Part shown: positions 1-9,150 of the stretch, piece by piece | Layout of the letters: the number at the start of each line of letters is the position of its first letter | How positions within the stretch are numbered: the first letter of the stretch is position 1 | Assembly (NCBI GenBank): GCA_964619465.1 | Contig: CAZUES010000001.1 | Location: 198,730 to 262,729, forward strand | From: an uncultured Gemmatimonas sp. | Lineage (GTDB): Bacteria > Gemmatimonadota > Gemmatimonadetes > Gemmatimonadales > GWC2-71-9 | Reading direction: 5' to 3' | Length of the DNA stretch: 64,000 nucleotides | Program-made: the position numbers and the translations under genes | Notes under the pieces: model-generated | Seen by the model: the letters and a program-made list of their open reading frames with translations, nothing else | What the model was told of the DNA's origin: nothing | The model's database searches: none

Positions 1-2979
1 CTTGGCCAGCGCGGCCACCAGTTCCGTCATCTGCTCGGGCTGACTCGGGTTCACCGCATAGGTCGTCGCATCGATCTGCTGGAATCCGGCGCCCGGCAGG
101 ACCGAGATCACGGTCCCATCGCGTCCCAGGCGGGTTGCAAGTGATGCACCCAGTCCCTGCTCGTCACGGAAAACCAGCCAGCGCATACCGGCCGCCAGTG
201 TCGTCTTCGCAGCAAGTGGGGCGCGCTGCCAGGTGGTTTCGTAGAACCACTGGCCGACATCGTTCCGCCGTGCCAGCGACGGCTTGGCTGCCGTGGCGCC
301 CTTGCCGGGCTGAATGAAGTACTGCTGGTGCTCGAAGGGATAGGTCGGCAGCGGAATCCGACGGCGCTGCTCGCCCTTCCAGAGACTGCTCCAGTTGGGT
401 ACGACACCGCCGAGCCAGAGGCGACCCACCATGGCGAGCGCGTGCGCGACGTCCGAGCCGGCCTCGTCCGGGTGGCGCATCGAGGTCAGCGTCGGTTGAT
501 CTGCCTTGCGATCGGAGTGGAGCGATGCCAGCGTCGCGAGGACTCGGCCCGGGCCGATCTCGAGCAGCACTCGACCTTCATCTCGGAGCAGTACGCCGAT
601 GCCATCGGCAAACCGAACCGTGTGGCGGAGATGTCGGACCCAGTACTCGGGGCTAGTCGCCTCCTCGGGCTTGATCCAGTCGCCCGTCACGTTGGAGACG
701 AATGGACGAGTCGGCGGGCTCAGCGCGATCCGGCGGAAAAACTCGCCGAACTCCTTGAGGATCGGCTCGAGCATGGCCGAATGGGCCGCGATGTTGATGC
801 GGATACGGCGGCAATCGATCTCATCGGCGGCGAGGGCCTTTTCCAGCGCATCGAGCGCGTGAAGGGGGCCGGACGCAACACAGAGTTCCGGCGCGTTGAT
901 CGCGGCAATCGAAAGCTCGGCGGGCAGCCGCTTCTCGAGGTCCGCGACGGCCAGCGGCACGCTGAGCATGCCGCCCGGCGGAATCCGCTCGAACAGCTTG
1001 CCACGCAGCGTAACCAGGGCCAGGCCGTCGGCGAGCGAGAAGACGCCGGCGAGATGGGCGGCGGTGTACTCGCCCATGCTGTGCCCGATCATCGCCTGCG
1101 GTTCGAGGCCCCAGGCCAGGCACAGCTTGGCCATGGCGTACTGGGTGATGAACAGGCAGGGCAGCGAGCGCGACGGGCGTTCGAGTTCCTCGCCCAGGCG
1201 GTCCCGATCGGCCGGAGCCGCCAGCAGCAGGGACTTGAGATCCCAGTCGAGTTGGGGCTGGAGCAGGGCAACGCACTCGTCCACGGCCGCGCGGTAGACC
1301 GGCTCCCGCTCGTAGAGATCCGCACCCATACCCGCGTACTGCGCACCGCCGCCGGCAAACATGAACGCCAGGGCGCGCTTTCGGTCGGAGACCTGAGCGG
1401 TCGGCACGACTTTGGGATCATTTCGCTCGAGCAGGTCGGCCGCTTCCGATGCGCTCTGCGCCACCACCATCCGGCGGTGAGCCAGTGCCTGGCGTCCGTT
1501 GGCGAGCGTAAACGCAACGTCGGCCGGCGAGTTCGGGTCCGTGCGCAGAGACGCAGCCAGGTTGGCACTGGCCGCATCGAGCGCCGTCGGGGTCTTGGCG
1601 GACAGCAGGTAGAGCTGGTGCTCGCGCGACGGTCCTGAGGGCGGCAGTGCCGGTGCCTCTTCGACGATCACATGTGCATTGGTACCGCCGGCACCGAGCG
1701 AACTGATACCGGCGCGGCGCGGGCCGCCATCGGTGGTCCAGTCACGGAGTTTGTCGTTCACGAAGAACGGGCTCGAAGCGAAGTCGATAGCCGGATTCGG
1801 CTCGGTGTAGTGCAGCGAAGGCGGAATCTGTCGATGCTTGAGCGCCTCGACCGTCTTGATCACGCTGGCAATGCCGGCTGCGGTATCGAGGTGCCCGACA
1901 TTCGACTTGAGCGATGCGATGGCGCAATATCCCGTTCGCTCCGCACCGGCGCCCTGGTAGGCCTGGGTCAACGCGGCGATCTCGATCGGGTCGCCGACCG
2001 GCGTCGCGGTGCCATGGCACTCGACGTACTGAATCGATTCCGGATCCACGTCCGCCAGCGCCAGAGCCTCAGCCACGGCCTGGGCCTGGCCGTCGACGCT
2101 CGGCGCCAGGAAACCGACTTTCTGGGCGCCGTCGTTGTTGATCGCGGAGCCCTTGATCACGGCGTGGATCGTGTCGCCGTCGCGGATGGCGTCCGCGAGG
2201 CGGCGGAGGACTACGATTCCTGTGCCGCTGCCGAATACGGTGCCCTCTGCCTTGGCGTCGAACGCGCGGCAGTGGCCATCCGGCGCCATGATCTCGCCCT
2301 CTTTGTACAGGTAGCCGACCGGATGCGGCTGCTTGACGGTGGTGCCCCCCGCGAGTGCCATGTCGCACTCGTTGTTGAGCAGGCTCTGGACCGCCAGGTG
2401 GACCGCCACGAGCGACGTGGAGCAGGCCGTCTGTACGTTGACGCTGGGGCCGCGCAGGTTCATCAGATACGATGCACGGGTGGCGAGGAAGTCCTTATCG
2501 TTGCCGGTGTGCCGGATCAGAAAGAAACCGACGTTCTCGACCAGCTCGGGGTTGGTGAGCAGGTTGAACATCATGTAGACGTTGGCGCCGCAACCGGCAA
2601 AGACGCCGACCGATCCGCCGAAGCGCTCGGGTGCGTGGCCGGCGTGTTCCATTGCCGTCCAGGCGACTTCGAGGAAATGGCGTTGCTGCGGGTCCATGAT
2701 GGCCGCCTCGCGCGGAGCAAACCCGAAGAAGCCCGCGTCGAATCCGGCCATGTCGGGCATCTGAAACGAGGCGCGCACATAGTCCGGATCGGTCAACAAC
2801 TCGTCGGAAACCCCTGCGGCGCGCAACTCCTCGTCGGTCAGTCGAGTGACGCTCTCGACGCCGTCGCGAAGATTGCTCCAGAAAGTGGCGACGTCCGAGG
2901 CACCCGGGAACCGGCCCGCCAGGCCGACGATGGCGATGTCGGTCTCGGCGGAACCGGGAGGAAGCTGCTGCTCGCTCAT
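1..2979 (-). CDS. Type I polyketide synthase (KS-AT-, continuing past the left edge; partial)
   Basis: Missing from the ORF track because there is no stop in the window. Manual translation from ATG 2979 gives MSEQQLPPGSAETDIAIVGLAGRFPGA, KS motifs VQTACSTS, ECHGTATPVGDPIE and KSNVGHL, AT motifs GHSMGEY and NIAAHS, then post-AT LPTYPFE and a WFYETTW...WLVF.D..GLG segment resembling the start of a KR structural subdomain. Motifs sampled along the gene all fall in one frame, down to about position 120. Confidence 0.95.
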   Translation of the reverse strand, partial: MSEQQLPPGSAETDIAIVGLAGRFPGASDVATFWSNLRDGVESVTRLTDEELRAAGVSDELLTDPDYVRASFQMPDMAGFDAGFFGFAPREAAIMDPQQRHFLEVAWTAMEHAGHAPERFGGSVGVFAGCGANVYMMFNLLTNPELVENVGFFLIRHTGNDKDFLATRASYLMNLRGPSVNVQTACSTSLVAVHLAVQSLLNNECDMALAGGTTVKQPHPVGYLYKEGEIMAPDGHCRAFDAKAEGTVFGSGTGIVVLRRLADAIRDGDTIHAVIKGSAINNDGAQKVGFLAPSVDGQAQAVAEALALADVDPESIQYVECHGTATPVGDPIEIAALTQAYQGAGAERTGYCAIASLKSNVGHLDTAAGIASVIKTVEALKHRQIPPSLHYTEPNPAIDFASSPFFVNDKLRDWTTDGGPRRAGISSLGAGGTNAHVIVEEAPALPPSGPSREHQLYLLSAKTPTALDAASANLAASLRTDPNSPADVAFTLANGRQALAHRRMVVAQSASEAADLLERNDPKVVPTAQVSDRKRALAFMFAGGGAQYAGMGADLYEREPVYRAAVDECVALLQPQLDWDLKSLLLAAPADRDRLGEELERPSRSLPCLFITQYAMAKLCLAWGLEPQAMIGHSMGEYTAAHLAGVFSLADGLALVTLRGKLFERIPPGGMLSVPLAVADLEKRLPAELSIAAINAPELCVASGPLHALDALEKALAADEIDCRRIRINIAAHSAMLEPILKEFGEFFRRIALSPPTRPFVSNVTGDWIKPEEATSPEYWVRHLRHTVRFADGIGVLLRDEGRVLLEIGPGRVLATLASLHSDRKADQPTLTSMRHPDEAGSDVAHALAMVGRLWLGGVVPNWSSLWKGEQRRRIPLPTYPFEHQQYFIQPGKGATAAKPSLARRNDVGQWFYETTWQRAPLAAKTTLAAGMRWLVFRDEQGLGASLATRLGRDGTVISVLPGAGFQQIDATTYAVNPSQPEQMTELVAALAK

Positions 2980-2982
2980 TGC

Positions 2983-5900
2983 TTACTGATCCTGTGAATC
3001 TGGACTCGCGCCGGCCGGGCGACGCCCGCGCCGGCGCTGCATCGCTTCGCGCCGGGCATCGGCCCGCGCTTGTGAGACTTCCGTAGTGGCGACGGCCGGA
3101 GCTGCGCCGCCCAAATGTTCCGCCAGCGACCGGATGGTCGGGAAGCGGAAGAGATCGGTGATCGACACCGGACGATCGATCGCGCTCCGAAGCCGCGAAT
3201 GCACTTTCACCGTCAGGAGCGAGTGTCCGCCGATATCGAAGAAATTGTCGTTGACGCCGACCTGGGGAACCCGAAGCGCTTCCTGCCAGATCGCGGCAAT
3301 GGTCTGTTCGAGTTCGCTGCCCGGCTGTACGTAGCTGGCAGCTGGTGCGGCGCTGTGGTCGGGCGCGGGCAGTGCTTTGCGGTCGATCTTGAGATTGGGC
3401 GTCCGCGGCAACCGGTCGAGGACCACGACATGGCTCGGGACCATGTACTCCGGGAGCCGCGCGCCGATGGCCTGGCGGATTTCCATCGGGTCGGGTCGCT
3501 GCCCTGTGCGGGCAACCAGATAGGCCACGATCCGTTTGTCTCCCGGAACATCTTCTCGCGCAATGACCACGGCTTCCCGTACCGTCGGGTGCTGCTCGAC
3601 GATGGCCTCGATCTCGCCCAGTTCGATCCGGTGGCCGCGAATCTTGACCTGGTGATCGAGCCGGCCGAGGAACTCGAGCTGCCCGTCCATGCGCCAGCGC
3701 ACCAGGTCGCCGGTGCGATAGACCCGGTTGCCCGGCGCCAGCGGATCGTCGATGAACCGCTCGGCCGTCAGCTCCGGACGATTCAGATAGCCGCGCACCA
3801 CGCCCGCGCCGCCGATCAGCAGTTCGCCGGCCACGCCGACGGGAACCGGTTCGAGGTTCCGATCGACCACGCGGCAGACCGTATTGGCAATCGGCGTTCC
3901 GAGCGACACCGACGTGACGCCCTGTTCCAGCCGATGGGTGGTCGACCAGATGGTCGTTTCCGTCGGACCGTACATGTTGATGACGTCACCCTGGACCAGC
4001 TGCTCCAGCTCGCCGGCCAGAGCGGGCGGGAACGCCTCGCCGCCGATCATCAGCCTGGTGAGTCCGGCAAAGCCGGGTTTGACCTCGGGCTGCGCGGCCA
4101 GCATCGCCGCCATCGACGGCGTGCACTGGAAATGGGTCACATTCCAGCGGCGGAGCTGGGCAGGAATGTCATAGTCGGCTGAGGCGCTCGCGGAGGACTC
4201 CTCCGAGCGACGGCGCAGTTCCGCGAGATCCTCCAGGCCCGCCAGGGTGTCGTCGATCGAAACCCCGAAGTCGATCAGGCAGGCAATCTCGTCGACGTCC
4301 ATGCCCTTGACCCGCTCGACCATCTCGAACGTCGTCTCGGGCGTTCCCATCAGGGCGCTGGTGTCGAAGTACCGATGGAAGGCATGGTCGAGCAGCGCCT
4401 CCATGTCCTCCTTGGTAAACTCGGCCGATCGCATGTCCTGACCCCGTCCCTCCGCCAGGCCCTTGATCAGGTCTACGGAGGTGCGCAGGTATTCTCGGAA
4501 CGGATGCCAGACCCGGGCTTTGACCTGTTCCATGTCGGGATGGACATAGGTATGGAGCATCAGGCTGACATGCCCGGCTCCCGCGTGGCCGGCTCGGCGC
4601 CAGGCCGCCCGGTACGCAGCAACCTTCTCGCGCAGAATCTCGGGGCTCTGTCCCAGCAGATGGGTCAGGATGTTGGCGCCGAGTTCTCCGGCTTTCTCGT
4701 ACGTCGCGGTGGTGCCGGCGGCGGTTACCCAGATCGGAAGTTCCGGCTGAATCGGGCGCGGCAGCGTCGTGATCGAGACATCCTTACCGGCTCCCCCCGG
4801 CATGGTAACCGCCTCGCCGCGCCAAAGGCGCCGGACGGTATCGATCATTTCCACCATGATCTCGCGCCGCCGCTCGTAGTTCTGCGGAGCAAAGACGAAA
4901 TCGCGATCGTGCCAGCCCGAGGCGAACGCCAGACCGACGCGACCGTTCGACAGGTTGTCGATCACGGCCCAGTCTTCGGCCACGCGGACGGGGCTGTGGA
5001 GCGGAAGCACCACGCTTCCCGTGCGAATCTTGATCCGCGACGTAATGGCCGCGATCGCTCCGCTCACCACCGCCGGGTTCGGGTAGAGACCGCCGAAGGC
5101 GTGGAAGTGTCGTTCGGGCGTCCAGATTGCCTCGAACCCGTTGGCGTCACCGAACTTGGCACCTTCGAGCAGCATGCGGTATCGGTCGCCGGGGGCGGCA
5201 TCGGCGGCGCTCGAGAAGTAGAAGAGGCTGAAGCCCAGCTTGCGATCCGACCGGGGAGTGCCCGTCTGCGCGCGCACTCGTTCGGGGTCGCCCTGGATCA
5301 CGACGTGGAAGCCGCGCGTCAGGGTCCAGAAGAGTTCGAGCACCGAGATGTCGAACGAGATGCTGGTGACCGCGAGCCAGGTGCCCGGCCCGTCGCCGCC
5401 GATCCGCTCGTCCATCCCGAGGAAGAAGTTGACCACGTTTCGGTGCTCGATCATGACGCCCTTGGGACGCCCGGTCGAACCCGAGGTGTAGATCACGTAG
5501 GCCAGGTCACTCGGCGCGGCGCCGCCATCCAGGTTGTCGTCCGGCAGGCGCGCAAATGACACCGCATCCAGGTCGACCCGCAGAACCTTGGCAGTCGTGG
5601 CCGGCAAGCGATCGACCAGGCGACCTTGGGTGATGATGACCGGCGCCGCGCTGTCTTCCAGCATGAAGGCGACCCGATCGGCCGGATAGGCCGGGTCCAG
5701 AGGCAGGTACGCACCTCCCGCCTTGAGGGTCGCCAGCATGCCGACCAGCATCTCGAGCGACCGCTCCGCAAAGATGCCGACCGGAACCCCGGCAGCCACG
5801 CCCAGCTCGCGGAGGCGTCGAGCCAGCCGATTCGCGCGCGTGTTGAGGTCATGGTAGCTCAGCGTCTCGTGCTCGAAGCTTGCGGCGGGCGCATCGGGCG

Positions 5901-8900
5901 TCAGCGCCACTTGGCGTTCGAACTGCGTGACCAGGGTGTCCGCGGCAGGCAGGGCTCGAACTGTGTCGTTCCAGACCCGATCGATCTGCACGTGCTCCGC
6001 CGGCGTCAGGATCCCCAGGCGCTCGATCGGCAGATCGGGTGCTCTGGCGGCTGCGCCGAGCAGCGTGACATAGTGGTTACCCAGGCGCTCGATCGTCGCT
6101 GCGTCGAACAGGTCGGTGTTGTACTCGAGATGGCCGACGTACCCCCCATCTTGCACGGCAAGCGAGAGGGTCAGGTCGAACTTGGCGGCGCCGGCGTCGA
6201 CGTCGATCTGTTCCAGGACCACGCCCGGCAGCGCCAGCGGGTGGACCGGCGTGTTCTGCAGGATGAAGAGCACCTGGAAGAGCGGTGAACGGCTCAGGTC
6301 GCGCGGCAGGTGAAGCCCCTCGACCAGGCGTTCGAATGGCAGGTCCTGATGCTGGAAGGCGCCCAGGGCCACTTCGCGAACCCGGCCGAGCAGCGTCCGG
6401 AAGCTGGGATTGCCGGCCAGGCTGGTGCGCAGCGCCAGGGTATTGACGAAGAACCCGATCAGCCCTTCCGTCTCGAGCCGGGTCCGTCCAGCCGTCGGCG
6501 ATCCGACAATGATGTCATCCTGCCCGGTGTACCGGCTGAGCATGGCCTGAAAGGCGGCCAGCAGCACCATGAACGCGGTGGCATCCTCTTCGGCGCCGAG
6601 TGTTTTGAGTCGGGCGGCGAGTTCGGTCGGAATCTCGAAACGGTGCGTCGAGCCCTTGAAGGTCTGAATAGGGGGACGCGCGCGGTCGGTCGGCAAGTCG
6701 AGTGTCGGCAGCGGTGCGGCGAGCAGACGGGTCCAATGCTCGAGCTGCCGGGCCAGGACCGATTCACTCAGCCAATCCCGCTGCCAGGCCGCGAAGTCGC
6801 CGTACTGGATCGGCAGCTCGGCCAGCGGCGAGGGTTCGCTCGACGCGTAGGCGCGGTAGAGTGCGCCGATTTCCTGATAGAGCACCCCGCGCGACCACCC
6901 GTCGGAGACGATGTGGTGCATCACGATGACCAGGAGGTGGTCGTCTGCGGACGTTTTGAGCAGCGTACCCCGAAACAGCGGTCCATTACTCAGGTCGAAC
7001 GGCTGCGAGGCAAGGTCTGCCGCGCGGCGGGTCAACGTCTCGTCGCTTGCGGGGGAGATCGTCTCGACGGCGAGGGTAAATCCATCGGCCGGTCTGACCA
7101 CCTGGCGGGCCACGCCATCGGTGCTGGGGAACGTCGTGCGCAGCGCCTCGTGACGCCGGACGATTTCCGTCAGGGTGCGTTCGAGTGCGCTCCGATCCAG
7201 TGCGCCGCGCATCCGGAATGCGGCCACCAGATTGTAGGCGGCGCTGTCCGGCTCGATCTGGTTGAGCACCCAGAGTCGTTCCTGAGCAAACGAGAGCGGG
7301 GCCGTCGTCCCCTCGGGCAGCCGGCCGATGGCGATGTCGGCCCCGCCGGATTCCTGGCCGAGTGCCACGACGGCCGCGGTCAGCGCAGCAACCGTTGGCT
7401 GCTCGAACAGTACTCTGAGCGGTGGTTCGGCGCCGAAGACGGAACGCACCCGCGCCAGCACCCGAACGGCCATCAGCGAGTGGCCGCCGATCTCGAAGAA
7501 ATGATCGTGGACGCCGACCGGAGACACTCCGATCACGTCCTCCCAGATGCGCGCCATGGCCCGCTCGGCGTCGGTCCGCGGCGCCAGGTACGCGGCGCCG
7601 TCGGCGCCGAAGGTAACGGGCAGGGACGACAGGGCGCCACGGTCGAGCTTGCCATTCGGCGTCCGGGGCAACGCAGGCAGAACCTGGAAGGCCGACGGGA
7701 CCATGTACTCCGGGACCGAACGGAGCAGGTGTTCCCGAAGCTCTCGACTGGTCGGAGCAGTGCCGTTCGAGGACGTCACGAAGGCAACCAGTGCCGTTTC
7801 GCCCTGGTGCTCGCGGGCCTGCACGGCCGCCGCCGTTACCTGCGGATGGCGCTGCAGCGTTGCTTCGACTTCTTCCACCTCGACCCGGTGGCCGCGCACT
7901 TTGAGCTGGTTGTCACGTCGCCCGGTAAAGGTGAGCAGTCCGTCCGGACGCCGAAGGCCCAGGTCGCCGGTGCGATAGAGCCGCCGCCCGACGGCCGGGT
8001 GTTCAACGAACCGCTCGGCGGTCAGATCCGGGCGATTGTGATAGCCGGGACCGACCGCAGCGCCGCCGATCCAGATCTCTCCGGCGGTACCGTCCGGCAC
8101 CGGTGAGCCCGACTCGTCCAGCAGGTGGATTTCGGTGCGCGGCAAGGGCGATCCAAGCGGAGCGACCGCGCTATCGGCCAGGAGGCTCGGGGTCAGGGTC
8201 ACGGTCGAGACGATGCCTGCCGTCTCGGTCTGTCCATACATGTTGATGAAGCGGGTCTGGCCGCCGGTGAGGGCCAGCCAGCGCTGAACCAGCGCCGATG
8301 GAAGCGGCTCGCTGGCCGACAGCGTCAGGCGCAGCGTCGAGCCTGCCAGCTGCGAGGGATCACTCTCCGCGGTTTCGATCAGGCGTGACCAGTACGACGG
8401 CACCAGGTCGATCACGGTTACCCGGGCGCGGCGGCACACCTGCAGCAGCTCCCGCGGGTCGGCAATCTCGGCGCGGCGCGCAATGACCACGCAGCCGCCC
8501 GTCAGCAGGGGCGCGAACAGCTGACGCACCGACGACGAGAAGGCCAGCGATGCGGTATGGAGGAATCGGTCCTGAGCTGCCAAACCGATCGCTTCTGTGA
8601 TGGCTGCGCTGTAATGGCTGAGGTTCCCATGAGTGATGATGACACCCTTGGGTTGGCCGGTTGAGCCCGACGTATATATCAGATAGGCTGGTGTGCCCGG
8701 TTCGACGTTTTCCGTCTCGGCTGGTTCGGCGGTGGTGGTGTCGTCGAGCAGGATTTCCCGTACGCCGGCCTCGGCCAACTCGCCGGAGCGCGCCCGGCTG
8801 GTGAGCAGGGTGGTTGCACCGGAGTCTCTCAGGATCCAGGTCATGCGGTCGCGCGGGTACGCCGGATCGAGGGGAACCCACGCTGCGCCGAGCTTCAGAA

Positions 8901-9150
8901 TTCCGAGGATTGCGGCGACCATGTCGCCGCCGCGATCGAGGTAGAGGCCGACGAAGTCACCGGACCGGACTCCGGCGGCCTTGAGTCGACCAGCTACCAG
9001 GGCCGCTCTCGCGTCGAGTTCAGCATAGGTCAACTGCTCGTCGCCCCAATGCACGGCCGACGCCCGAGATCGGGCTTCCAGTTGGGTCGCGATTACCTTG
9101 GCGACGCCGCCGGTCCACGGTTGTGCTGCAATGGGCGAAGTCGTGGTCAT
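2983..9150 (-). CDS. NRPS, A-T-C-A(interrupted by a luciferase-like monooxygenase domain)-T, 2055 aa
   Basis: Two A3 motifs (YLIYTSGSTGQPKG, YVIYTSGSTGRPKG), two carrier motifs (FFEIGGHSL, FFDIGGHSL) and C-domain HHIVSDG. LLM segment KLGFSLFYFSS...PERHFHAFGGLYPNP...GLAFASGWH at ~4215-5243. Stop is 3 bp from the PKS start. Confidence 0.96.
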   Translation of the reverse strand: MTTTSPIAAQPWTGGVAKVIATQLEARSRASAVHWGDEQLTYAELDARAALVAGRLKAAGVRSGDFVGLYLDRGGDMVAAILGILKLGAAWVPLDPAYPRDRMTWILRDSGATTLLTSRARSGELAEAGVREILLDDTTTAEPAETENVEPGTPAYLIYTSGSTGQPKGVIITHGNLSHYSAAITEAIGLAAQDRFLHTASLAFSSSVRQLFAPLLTGGCVVIARRAEIADPRELLQVCRRARVTVIDLVPSYWSRLIETAESDPSQLAGSTLRLTLSASEPLPSALVQRWLALTGGQTRFINMYGQTETAGIVSTVTLTPSLLADSAVAPLGSPLPRTEIHLLDESGSPVPDGTAGEIWIGGAAVGPGYHNRPDLTAERFVEHPAVGRRLYRTGDLGLRRPDGLLTFTGRRDNQLKVRGHRVEVEEVEATLQRHPQVTAAAVQAREHQGETALVAFVTSSNGTAPTSRELREHLLRSVPEYMVPSAFQVLPALPRTPNGKLDRGALSSLPVTFGADGAAYLAPRTDAERAMARIWEDVIGVSPVGVHDHFFEIGGHSLMAVRVLARVRSVFGAEPPLRVLFEQPTVAALTAAVVALGQESGGADIAIGRLPEGTTAPLSFAQERLWVLNQIEPDSAAYNLVAAFRMRGALDRSALERTLTEIVRRHEALRTTFPSTDGVARQVVRPADGFTLAVETISPASDETLTRRAADLASQPFDLSNGPLFRGTLLKTSADDHLLVIVMHHIVSDGWSRGVLYQEIGALYRAYASSEPSPLAELPIQYGDFAAWQRDWLSESVLARQLEHWTRLLAAPLPTLDLPTDRARPPIQTFKGSTHRFEIPTELAARLKTLGAEEDATAFMVLLAAFQAMLSRYTGQDDIIVGSPTAGRTRLETEGLIGFFVNTLALRTSLAGNPSFRTLLGRVREVALGAFQHQDLPFERLVEGLHLPRDLSRSPLFQVLFILQNTPVHPLALPGVVLEQIDVDAGAAKFDLTLSLAVQDGGYVGHLEYNTDLFDAATIERLGNHYVTLLGAAARAPDLPIERLGILTPAEHVQIDRVWNDTVRALPAADTLVTQFERQVALTPDAPAASFEHETLSYHDLNTRANRLARRLRELGVAAGVPVGIFAERSLEMLVGMLATLKAGGAYLPLDPAYPADRVAFMLEDSAAPVIITQGRLVDRLPATTAKVLRVDLDAVSFARLPDDNLDGGAAPSDLAYVIYTSGSTGRPKGVMIEHRNVVNFFLGMDERIGGDGPGTWLAVTSISFDISVLELFWTLTRGFHVVIQGDPERVRAQTGTPRSDRKLGFSLFYFSSAADAAPGDRYRMLLEGAKFGDANGFEAIWTPERHFHAFGGLYPNPAVVSGAIAAITSRIKIRTGSVVLPLHSPVRVAEDWAVIDNLSNGRVGLAFASGWHDRDFVFAPQNYERRREIMVEMIDTVRRLWRGEAVTMPGGAGKDVSITTLPRPIQPELPIWVTAAGTTATYEKAGELGANILTHLLGQSPEILREKVAAYRAAWRRAGHAGAGHVSLMLHTYVHPDMEQVKARVWHPFREYLRTSVDLIKGLAEGRGQDMRSAEFTKEDMEALLDHAFHRYFDTSALMGTPETTFEMVERVKGMDVDEIACLIDFGVSIDDTLAGLEDLAELRRRSEESSASASADYDIPAQLRRWNVTHFQCTPSMAAMLAAQPEVKPGFAGLTRLMIGGEAFPPALAGELEQLVQGDVINMYGPTETTIWSTTHRLEQGVTSVSLGTPIANTVCRVVDRNLEPVPVGVAGELLIGGAGVVRGYLNRPELTAERFIDDPLAPGNRVYRTGDLVRWRMDGQLEFLGRLDHQVKIRGHRIELGEIEAIVEQHPTVREAVVIAREDVPGDKRIVAYLVARTGQRPDPMEIRQAIGARLPEYMVPSHVVVLDRLPRTPNLKIDRKALPAPDHSAAPAASYVQPGSELEQTIAAIWQEALRVPQVGVNDNFFDIGGHSLLTVKVHSRLRSAIDRPVSITDLFRFPTIRSLAEHLGGAAPAVATTEVSQARADARREAMQRRRGRRPAGASPDSQDQ

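What the first reader, a model, noticed from the sequence alone, without database searches (positions are those of the whole stretch)
7650..9150. Starter A domain lacks the alpha-amino-binding Asp (FDxS becomes FSSS) and has Arg in the pocket
Seen: A4 reads LAFSSSVRQLF (codons 8541-8515), the GGE motif is SASE and A5 is NMYGQTET. Established: Asp235 binds the alpha-amino group, and domains lacking it activate non-amino acids. The approximate by-eye code is S-S-R-D-L-A-M. Inference: the A-T loading module activates a carboxylic acid, possibly with a second anionic group paired to Arg. This would determine the product's starter unit.
Basis: partly seen in the sequence, partly recalled or inferred. 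Interest (0 to 1): 0.68.

Follow-up and report, generated by a model that had tools for sequence, protein, structure and literature searches.

The report
Asp-less NRPS loading domain, conserved family
The first enzyme domain of this peptide–polyketide assembly line really lacks the residue that grips an amino acid's amino group; it belongs to a large, apparently unstudied family found in many bacterial phyla, which probably loads a keto or hydroxy acid and often sits in slime (polysaccharide) gene clusters.

Summary
A1 of the 2055-aa NRPS (window 2983-9150, minus strand) reads FSSSVRQLF at A4, SASE for GGE and NMYGQTET at A5. Its ten-residue code is SSRDLAMGIK. All catalytic core motifs and the carrier serine are intact.

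New here:
- The same code is identical in about 25 loci at only 27-56% identity, from Gemmatimonadota, Acidobacteriota, Cyanobacteria, Planctomycetota, Binatia and Rickettsiales.
- In a tree, one fully supported branch separates this "xxRD" group from all canonical A domains sampled.
- Relatives carry telling partners: fused Ldh_2 reductases, a fused glycolate/lactate-oxidase-type domain, inserted FkbM methyltransferases, and adjacent TauD hydroxylases with His-less C-like domains.
- Seventeen relatives sit behind catalytically intact C domains, so the loaded unit must offer a nucleophile.

Best reading, about 0.5: A1 activates a 2-oxo or 2-hydroxy acid, possibly carrying a distal anionic group, as the starter. 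It is then joined to glycine by the LLM-bearing second module.

The substrate is inferred, not shown. No paper in the searched library holds any of these codes. It is a new variant of a known kind, of moderate to high interest to NRPS specialists.

The parts
7621..9150 (-). A1 adenylation domain (aa 1-510) of the 2055-aa NRPS, with specificity code SSRDLAMGIK
   Evidence: Pfam AMP-binding covers aa 23-371. PDB A-domain alignments. Code extraction.
8515..8541 (-). A4 motif FSSSVRQLF. Ser at position 235 is at 8536-8538, Ser236 at 8533-8535, Arg239 at 8524-8526.
   Evidence: Sequence read, aligned to FDxS of LgrA. FSSSVRQ is present in 141 of 160 family members.
8407..8409 (-). Asp at pocket position 278, the invariant partner of Arg239
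   Evidence: It is invariant in the family. L016 has Lys239/Glu278 instead.
8308..8319 (-). SASE in place of the usual xGGE. Ala at position 301 is at 8314-8316.
   Evidence: SASE or TASE occurs in 114 of 160 family members.
8221..8244 (-). A5 motif NMYGQTET. Met322 is at 8239-8241. Gln replaces the canonical Pro of NxYGPTE.
   Evidence: Gln occupies this position (xGQ[TS]E) in all 160 aligned family members; 159 read GQTE.
7648..7650 (-). Lys517 equivalent in A10 (PNGKLDR)
7369..7554 (-). T1 carrier domain (aa 533-594, GGHSL serine)
   Evidence: Pfam PP-binding.
5986..7308 (-). C domain (aa 615-1055) with an intact HHIVSDGWS motif. It joins the A1 unit to glycine.
   Evidence: Pfam Condensation, 376 bits. 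Motif seen.
3355..5901 (-). A2 domain with glycine-type code DILQIGMIWK. It is split by a luciferase-like monooxygenase (aa 1305-1646, window 4213-5238).
   Evidence: Pfam Bac_luciferase. TIGR04020, 511 bits. Code.
3112..3306 (-). T2 carrier domain
   Evidence: Pfam PP-binding reports two matched stretches in P0001. The phmmer T1 probe hits aa 1949-2013.
1..2979 (-). 5' part of the downstream 1879-aa PKS, KS-AT-KR-DH-(Asub)-T. It runs off the window to C1:196069.

Best explanation
A1 is a working NRPS adenylation domain of a distinct, widespread clade, here called xxRD. The clade's signature is Ser235-Ser236-Arg239-Asp278, Gly330 and YGQTE. It has given up the alpha-amino-binding Asp.

A1 most likely adenylates a short 2-oxo acid, or the matching 2-hydroxy acid, and loads it on T1. 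Candidates are oxaloacetate/malate or 2-oxoglutarate if Arg239 binds a distal anion. They are pyruvate/lactate or glyoxylate/glycolate if Arg239-Asp278 only plug the pocket.

The intact C domain then joins this acyl starter to glycine held on T2. The embedded luciferase-like monooxygenase probably oxidises the glycyl unit. The KS-AT-KR-DH PKS adds one reduced ketide.

Shown: the motif, its conservation, the clade, the domain fusions and the gene contexts. Inferred: the substrate class and every chemical step.
For: 1. Position 235 is Ser while all ATP-binding and catalytic motifs and the T1 serine are intact. The same holds in 160 relatives.
2. The ten-residue code is identical at 27-56% identity in at least six phyla. 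Only 52 of 525 columns are invariant in the family alignment. The pocket is therefore under strong selection for one ligand class.
3. One branch with 100% SH-aLRT support separates all 41 xxRD rows from all 47 canonical A domains.
4. Enzymes of 2-oxo/2-hydroxy acid chemistry are fused to the same pocket:
- A-T-Ldh_2 in P0448, which has the identical code SSRDLAMGIK, and in L034.
- The nearest solved relatives of that Ldh_2 domain are archaeal malate dehydrogenase and sulfolactate dehydrogenase.
- A-T-TE-FMN_dh in P0339, whose nearest solved relatives are L-lactate and glycolate oxidases.
- A ThDP enzyme and an enolase-superfamily gene lie in locus L066.
5. Intact HHxxxD C domains sit directly upstream in L011, L034 and 17 C-A-T-TE proteins. 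This fits a hydroxyl acceptor, as in depsipeptide modules.
6. TauD genes lie next to His-less C-like domains, and FkbM methyltransferases are inserted in some relatives. This fits a unit with an oxidisable beta-carbon.
7. Published rule: keto-acid A domains lose Asp235 (PMC13643306, PMC10949194).
Against: - No assay was done and no characterised member was found.
- Classical keto-acid A domains carry an aliphatic residue at 235, not Ser, and have a KR in the module. The window's module has no reductase.
- The Ldh_2 and FMN_dh fusions are few: three proteins among about 200 examined.
- FMN_dh and Ldh_2 enzymes normally act on free acids, so they may only supply precursors.
- Most relatives (A-T-TE, A-T) give no chemical hint.
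- Arg239/Asp278 also fit an amino diacid bound in reverse. The TauD plus interface-like domain pairing is best known for aspartate (from memory of Reitz et al. 2019).
Confidence: 0.5

Rival explanations
1. A1 activates the side-chain (omega) carboxyl of an acidic amino acid such as Asp, Glu or a relative. Arg239 holds the alpha-carboxylate and Asp278 the alpha-ammonium at the pocket floor, so Asp235 is not needed.
For: - Arg at position 239 is the hallmark I recall for the aminoadipate (ACVS) and iso-linked Glu/MeAsp (McyE, McyB) codes. This is from memory, not tested here.
- An amine nucleophile would explain the intact upstream C domains.
- The pairing of TauD with a His-less C-like domain resembles aspartyl beta-hydroxylase systems.
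- AsnB-like amidotransferases lie beside the A-T genes in L030 and L031, which fits a free carboxylate on the loaded unit.
Against: - The remembered omega-activating codes keep Asp or Glu at 235; this clade never does.
- The Ldh_2, FMN_dh and ThDP partners point to oxo/hydroxy acids, not amino acids.
- The Lys/Glu swap in L016 suggests positions 239 and 278 pair with each other.
Confidence: 0.15
2. A1 activates a plain carboxylic acid with no alpha substituent, for example succinate or another simple dicarboxylate, or a short fatty acid. It serves only as an N-terminal cap.
For: - In the window it is a pure loading module.
- In most relatives with an upstream C-like domain the catalytic His is lost, as expected if the unit cannot accept an acyl group.
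- Succinate is de-amino-aspartate, which would fit the TauD partners.
Against: - Intact C domains lie upstream in L011, L034 and 17 C-A-T-TE proteins with the same SSRD signature at positions 235/236/239/278.
- The two invariant serines at 235 and 236 suggest a polar alpha group.
- The domain groups with amino-acid-type A domains in the solved-structure search, where every listed match is an NRPS-type adenylation enzyme. Acyl-CoA/fatty-acid ligase models score far below their curated cut-offs.
Confidence: 0.12
3. A1 is a relic or structural domain that no longer adenylates anything, and the starter unit is supplied in trans.
For: Asp235 is missing and GGE is changed to SASE. Degenerate A domains are known elsewhere, for example the Ax domain in PMC13643306.
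Against: - A3, A5, A7, A8, A10 and Lys517 are intact here and in 160 relatives.
- The ten pocket residues are under much stronger constraint than the rest of the domain.
- Stand-alone A-T and A-T-TE versions have no other adenylating domain.
Confidence: 0.03

Closest known systems
Alpha-keto-acid-activating NRPS A domains (CesA/CesB of cereulide, Vlm of valinomycin, CrpD-M2 of cryptophycin, StsA)
   Same: They are embedded in the amino-acid-type A-domain fold and have lost Asp235. They load a 2-oxo acid that an in-module reductase converts to a hydroxy acid, which a C domain then esterifies. Relatives of A1 carry a fused reductase (Ldh_2) and sit behind intact C domains.
   Different: - Position 235 is Ser, with Ser236, not an aliphatic residue as the published rule states (PMC13643306, PMC10949194).
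- Where a reductase is present it is an Ldh_2 domain after T, not a KR inserted in A.
- The window's module has no reductase.
- The clade has its own signature (Arg239-Asp278, Gly330, YGQTE) and forms a separate branch.
MtaG/MelG-type glycine module with embedded monooxygenase (myxothiazol/melithiazol); TIGR04020 MupA/Atu3671 LLM family
   Same: The module directly after A1-T1 is C-A(Gly code DILQIGMIWK)-LLM-T. The pairing of an SSRD A domain with an LLM-interrupted A domain recurs in Gemmatimonadota and in an acidobacterial locus, L004.
   Different: Here the module is not terminal and has no TE. It hands on to a PKS, so terminal-amide release as in myxothiazol (from memory) is not the obvious outcome.
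Aspartyl beta-hydroxylase / interface-domain systems of siderophore NRPSs (Reitz et al. 2019, recalled; mentioned in bioRxiv 10.64898/2026.07.24.740629)
   Same: In six related loci a TauD/TfdA gene lies directly upstream of the SSRD A-domain gene. In four of these (L004, L009, L019 and L017) it is flanked differently: L004, L009 and L019 have a C-like domain lacking both catalytic His (SSLCAD, PSLLID) immediately before the A domain. L019 continues with Orn-like and Ser modules plus a TE, which looks like a siderophore.
   Different: The A domain is not an Asp-type domain (DLTKxGHxGK, from memory) and has no Asp235. The window's own genome has no TauD homologue, and the window's A1 has no such N-terminal domain.
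NRPS-like A-T-TE enzymes (TdiA/AtrA/RalA type, aryl-pyruvate users; recalled)
   Same: The commonest architecture of the clade is a stand-alone A-T-TE of about 900 aa without Asp235. The known A-T-TE enzymes use 2-oxo acids.
   Different: The pocket is not comparable and the TE has a Ser nucleophile (GYSFG). Many of these genes sit in Wzx/Wzy polysaccharide loci. No quinone- or furanone-type chemistry is implied.

Membership tests
NRPS adenylation domain (ANL superfamily, TIGR01733 / PF00501+PF13193) | Core motifs A3, A5, A7, A8 and A10 with Lys517, and the AMP-binding fold | tested here: met
   Pfam AMP-binding and AMP-binding_C. TIGR01733, 843 bits summed over three matched stretches of the whole protein (A1 plus the two halves of A2). 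Motifs read. Best PDB matches are NRPS A domains.
NRPS adenylation domain (alpha-amino-acid type) | Asp235 in FDxS, which binds the alpha-amino group | tested here: not met
   Ser (TCG 8538-8536) aligns with Asp of FDGS/FDIS in LgrA. The same holds in all SSRD relatives.
NRPS adenylation domain | Followed by a carrier domain with a phosphopantetheine-accepting serine | tested here: met
   PP-binding at aa 533-594 with GGHSL.
Alpha-keto-acid A domains (Ak; cereulide/valinomycin/cryptophycin type) | Asp235 replaced by an aliphatic residue | tested here: not met
   Ser235 here. The rule is taken from PMC13643306 and PMC10949194. The sister group ALRD/VVRD does have Ala or Val at 235.
Alpha-keto-acid A domains (Ak) | A ketoreductase in the same module that reduces the tethered 2-oxoacyl group | tested here: not met
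   There is no KR or other reductase between A1 and T1 or after T1 in the window. Relatives P0448 and L034 carry an Ldh_2 domain after T.
Alpha-keto-acid A domains (Ak) | Demonstrated preference for a 2-oxo acid over the amino and hydroxy acid | not testable with these tools
   This needs an ATP-PPi exchange or loading assay.
Aryl-acid A domains (DhbE/EntE type) and fatty acyl-AMP ligases | Membership of those ANL subfamilies by sequence | tested here: not met
   All 60 PDB matches listed are NRPS-type adenylation enzymes, and no aryl-acid ligase or FAAL appears among them. NCBIfam acyl-CoA and fatty-acid ligase models score far below their cut-offs.
Omega-carboxyl-activating A domains (ACVS aminoadipate, McyE/McyB iso-Glu/MeAsp) | Arg at position 239 together with a retained acidic residue at 235 (codes recalled from memory) | tested here: inconclusive
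   Arg239 is present and the acidic residue at 235 is absent. The reference codes were not re-derived here.
xxRD clade (defined here, not a curated family) | No Asp at 235/236, Arg239 + Asp278, Gly330 and YGQTE; one side of a fully supported branch | tested here: met
   The window's A1 groups with its own paralogue on contig C33 and with other SSRDLAMGIK domains.

The most novel reading that the evidence does not exclude
The xxRD domains are an unrecognised, cross-phylum class of NRPS adenylation domains. They would be a second, independent solution to selecting 2-oxo or 2-hydroxy acids, using Ser235/Ser236/Gln325 rather than an aliphatic 235. They may be dedicated to anionic central metabolites such as oxaloacetate/malate or 2-oxoglutarate. 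Their frequent position inside Wzx/Wzy or exosortase polysaccharide loci would mean that carrier-protein-bound acyl or peptidyl units are attached to, or made together with, surface glycans in Gemmatimonadota, Acidobacteriota and Cyanobacteria.
Probability: 0.3. Interest if true: 0.78.

Novelty: new variant of a known kind. Interest (0 to 1): 0.66.

Why it matters
A-domain codes are the basis of every NRPS product prediction. A code that recurs unchanged in well over a hundred proteins from six or more phyla, and that no paper in the searched library mentions, is a blind spot for genome mining.

Assigning its substrate once would do three things:
- Fix the starter or terminal unit of a whole set of orphan clusters, including siderophore-like, polysaccharide-linked and Rickettsiales clusters.
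- Show how an amino-acid-type pocket was rebuilt for a non-amino acid by a route different from the known keto-acid domains.
- Test whether NRPS modules decorate exopolysaccharides.

Tried and rejected
- The whole-library phmmer search with A1 returned only giant multi-module NRPSs, ranked by summed score. It was useless for finding orthologues.
- The first word-indexed search had the same problem, but it did yield five true orthologues.
I therefore could not check TIGR03098 (XrtA-associated ligase) members for the same pocket, nor scan relatives' genomes. The link between this NRPS and the ligase/ACP/decarboxylase trio of XrtA loci stays an untested idea.
- Full-text searches for ten variants of the code found nothing. 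Supplements were not searched.
- The idea that L017/L018 carry a KR inside the A domain was rejected: the insert is an FkbM-type methyltransferase.
TE domains of the SSRD A-T-TE proteins have a Ser nucleophile.
- I did not run structure prediction. The tool returns no coordinates, so the Arg239-Asp278 geometry could not have been read from it.
- The genomic context of the second copy on contig C33 gave no biosynthetic hint.
Full report
**What is in the window.** Window 2983-9150 (minus strand) is one ORF of 2055 aa. Pfam and NCBIfam give the architecture A1-T1-C-A2-T2. A2 is split by a luciferase-like monooxygenase of the MupA/Atu3671 family (TIGR04020, 511 bits). The next gene downstream runs off the window start. 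In the genome copy it is an 1879-aa PKS of the form KS-AT-KR-DH-(lone A-subdomain)-T, with no TE.

Around the pair lie these genes:
- a weak hydr1_PEP-like alpha/beta hydrolase;
- a GT4-like protein;
- an XrtA-type amidotransferase-like Asn synthase homologue;
- an ATP-grasp protein;
- a GT2;
- exosortase and EpsI;
- a Wzc-like kinase;
- a sigma-54 activator.

The synthetase therefore sits inside an exosortase/PEP-CTERM-type exopolysaccharide locus. The closest genome matches are Gemmatimonadales MAGs.

**Checking the observation.** A4 is LAFSSSVRQLF. FSSSVRQLF is encoded at 8541-8515, the Asp235 position is Ser (TCG 8538-8536), and position 239 is Arg (CGT 8526-8524). HMMER alignments to LgrA A domains put FSSS opposite FDGS/FDIS and SASE opposite ACGE. 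The complete code is SSRDLAMGIK.

A3 (TSGSTGQPKG), A7 (YRTGD), A8 (GRRDNQLKVRG), A10 (PNGKLDR with the Lys517 equivalent) and the T1 serine (GGHSL) are canonical. On sequence grounds the domain is not a wreck. A2 has the code DILQIGMIWK, which I recognise from memory as glycine-type.

**The pocket is not a local oddity.** Five orthologous synthetases at 58-88% identity keep FSSSVRQL. A scan of one genome per species found about 25 further loci whose A domain is only 27-56% identical to A1 but has the same ten-residue code. They come from these groups:
- Gemmatimonadota;
- Acidobacteriota (Pyrinomonadaceae, Chloracidobacterium);
- Cyanobacteria (Nostoc, Dolichospermum, Calothrix, Scytonema, Fischerella);
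- Binatia;
- Longimicrobiales;
- Brocadiaceae;
- a Rickettsia MAG and a Holosporales MAG.

The window's own genome holds a second copy on contig C33. It is a 736-aa protein of the form A-(extra A-subdomain)-T, 55% identical to A1, in a context with no biosynthetic hint.

In a 20-sequence alignment of these domains, with median pairwise identity 45%, only 52 of 525 columns are invariant. Family-specific invariant residues include Ser235, Ser236, Gln240, Asp278, Ala301, Ser302, Met322, Gly330 and Ile331.

Two further protein searches added about 160 members with Ser-Ser-x-x-Arg at A4:
- Their codes follow SSRD[LVI][AST][MIV]G[INT]K.
- A3, A7, A8 and A10 are kept.
- Gln replaces the Pro of NxYGPTE in all 160, and 159 read GQTE.

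A sister set has ALRD or VVRD, that is Ala or Val at 235. One Clostridia relative has SAKE, with Lys239/Glu278 in place of Arg/Asp.

In a maximum-likelihood tree of 88 A-domain cores, one branch with 100% SH-aLRT support puts all 47 canonical domains on one side and all 41 xxRD domains on the other. The canonical side includes the other modules of the same synthetases. This is a distinct clade with a single loss of Asp235.

**What the relatives say about the substrate.** The domain occurs in many architectures:
- A-T-TE of about 900 aa, the commonest form;
- A-T;
- C-A-T and C-A-T-TE;
- A with an FkbM-type methyltransferase inserted in the C-terminal subdomain;
- the first module of larger synthetases.

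Four kinds of partner are informative.

(i) Oxidoreductases of 2-oxo/2-hydroxy acids fused to the module.
- P0448 is A(SSRDLAMGIK)-T-Ldh_2, with exactly the window's code.
- The Brocadiaceae locus L034 encodes acyl-ligase-T-C-A(SSRD)-T-Ldh_2 once two frameshifts in the MAG are read through.
- The nearest solved relatives of that Ldh_2 domain are an archaeal malate dehydrogenase (1v9n) and L-sulfolactate dehydrogenase (2x06). These rank ahead of ureidoglycolate dehydrogenase and piperideine-carboxylate reductase.
- P0339 is A(SSRDVSIG-K)-T-TE-FMN_dh. Its nearest solved relatives are L-lactate oxidase and glycolate oxidase/HAO1.
- The P0448 locus also encodes an A-T-TE fused to a ThDP enzyme, and an enolase-superfamily protein.

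(ii) TauD/TfdA dioxygenase genes lie directly upstream of the A-domain gene in six loci. In six loci (L004, L009, L010, L019, L020, L027) the C-like domain in front of A lacks both catalytic histidines (SSLCAD, PSLLID). Three of these (L004, L009, L019) are also TauD loci. In the Gemmatimonadaceae orthologues and three metagenomic ones only the second His is lost (HNALLDGRS, HPALLDERS). This resembles the interface-domain/beta-hydroxylase pairing described for aspartate in siderophores, which I cite from memory of Reitz et al. 2019.

(iii) FkbM-type methyltransferase inserts are common, about 25 of the 120 closest single-module relatives.

(iv) Intact C domains lie directly upstream in L011 (HHIVSDGWS), L034 (HHIVFDGWS) and 17 orphan cyanobacterial C-A-T-TE proteins. 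In those the unit on T must act as acceptor, so it must have or acquire a hydroxyl or amino group.

**Reading.** Published work states that keto-acid A domains lose Asp235, usually to an aliphatic residue, and that an in-module reductase then makes the hydroxy acid that a C domain esterifies (PMC13643306, PMC10949194). The xxRD clade shows the same logic with different parts:
- no Asp235;
- polar Ser-Ser in the SSRD members, or Ala/Val in the sister group;
- occasional Ldh_2 in place of KR;
- intact C domains in some members.

I therefore take a 2-oxo acid, or directly the 2-hydroxy acid, as the most likely substrate class of A1.

- For it: the nearest solved relatives of the fused Ldh_2 are enzymes of oxaloacetate and sulfopyruvate. 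AsnB-like amidotransferases lie beside the Rickettsiales A-T genes. The code also resembles the x-D278-L299 pattern of Glu/Gln codes, which I cite from memory.
- Against it: the strict pairing of Arg239 with Asp278, and the Lys/Glu swap in L016, look like an internal salt bridge that could simply shorten the pocket. The fused oxidase is of the glycolate/lactate type.

In the window, the loaded acyl group would be condensed with glycine by the intact C domain. It would then be modified by the LLM and extended once by the PKS. No reductase or TauD for the starter is encoded nearby or elsewhere in this genome.

**Rivals.**
- An acidic amino acid bound in reverse would explain Arg239/Asp278 and the intact C domains. 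It does not explain the oxidoreductase partners, and the omega-activating codes I recall keep an acidic residue at 235.
- A plain acid such as succinate fits the loading position and the many His-less C-like domains. It does not fit the intact ones.
- An inactive domain is very unlikely, given motif integrity and the selective constraint on the pocket.

**Context worth noting.** Polysaccharide genes lie within 10 kb of the xxRD A-domain gene in the window and in 11 of the 27 other loci examined, from four phyla. These genes are:
- GT4 (PF00534), in nine loci;
- priming sugar transferase (PF02397), in six loci;
- Wzx, Wzy and Wzc.

Other members sit in siderophore-like lines, for example L019: SSRD, then an Orn-like module, then Ser, then TE. 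Others are orphans.

**Novelty.** No paper in the searched library contains any of ten spellings of these codes. NCBIfam has no specific model. Losing Asp235 for a non-amino acid is a known principle. This particular clade, its signature and its distribution appear undescribed. I rate it a new variant of a known kind.

**Limits.**
- No assay and no structure with coordinates were available.
- Several reference codes (Gly, Glu/Gln, Asp, aminoadipate, McyE/McyB, beta-Ala) and the interface-domain literature are cited from memory.
- The fusion evidence rests on few proteins.

Noticed in passing
window 1-2979 (-) continuing to C1:196069; own genome C33:19728-21938 (-): The PKS ends in a lone A-domain C-terminal subdomain (AMP-binding_C only, with GKVDR) followed by T. 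The second SSRD protein of the genome has the same extra Asub-T unit after a complete A domain. The role of this orphan subdomain is unknown.
   Followed up: partly
L005, L009, L013, L014, L015, L017, L019, L021, L023, L032, L001 and the window: A-domain genes with the SSRD pocket lie within 10 kb of polysaccharide genes in the window and in 11 of 27 other loci from four phyla. The genes are GT4, the priming transferase PF02397, Wzx, Wzy and Wzc. This suggests an NRPS-made unit linked to surface glycans.
   Followed up: partly
L004 7533-8576, L009 7425-8495, L017 8706-9830, L019 4555-5589, L030 8943-9908, L031 8946-9905: TauD/TfdA dioxygenase genes lie directly upstream of the SSRD A-domain gene. 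In L004, L009 and L019 (and in L010, L020 and L027, where no TauD was seen) the A domain follows a C-like domain lacking both catalytic His (SSLCAD/PSLLID). This looks like an interface-domain/hydroxylase pair acting on a non-aspartate unit.
   Followed up: partly
L017 9830-12577; L018 1892-4657; P0297, P0300, P0304 and about 25 proteins: An FkbM-type methyltransferase (PF05050) is inserted in the C-terminal subdomain of SSRD A domains. This is a common sub-architecture that I did not find described in the interrupted-A-domain survey I opened (PMC8341866 has no mention of FkbM).
   Followed up: partly
L030 and L031 (Rickettsia and Holosporales MAGs): A conserved cluster in intracellular Alphaproteobacteria. 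It holds a roughly 2980-aa NRPS-PKS with two beta-alanine-like codes (IDTVISFGDK, VDAVISFA-K), a TauD gene, A(SSRD)-T, an AsnB-like amidotransferase and an ABC exporter.
   Followed up: no
L034 8270-12750: Two frameshifts interrupt the C-A(SSRD)-T-Ldh_2 gene in this long-read MAG. They are probably assembly errors rather than pseudogenisation.
   Followed up: partly
L063 3265-4350 and L064 4608-5681: Both orphan cyanobacterial loci, A-T-TE-FMN_dh and C-A-T-TE, have a chlorophyllase/PAF-AH/PETase-like hydrolase gene about 5 kb upstream. This may be coincidence.
   Followed up: no
L066 2041-6525: A 1494-aa protein fuses A-T-TE to a complete ThDP-dependent enzyme (TPP_enzyme N, M and C). It lies next to the A(SSRD)-T-Ldh_2 gene.
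   Followed up: no
window 2983-9150 versus P0051, P0054, P0090, L003 and L006-L008: More distant orthologues of the whole synthetase carry an extra N-terminal degenerate C domain of about 440 aa (HPALLDERS / HNALLDGRS) before A1. The window's protein and its closest relatives have lost it.
   Followed up: partly
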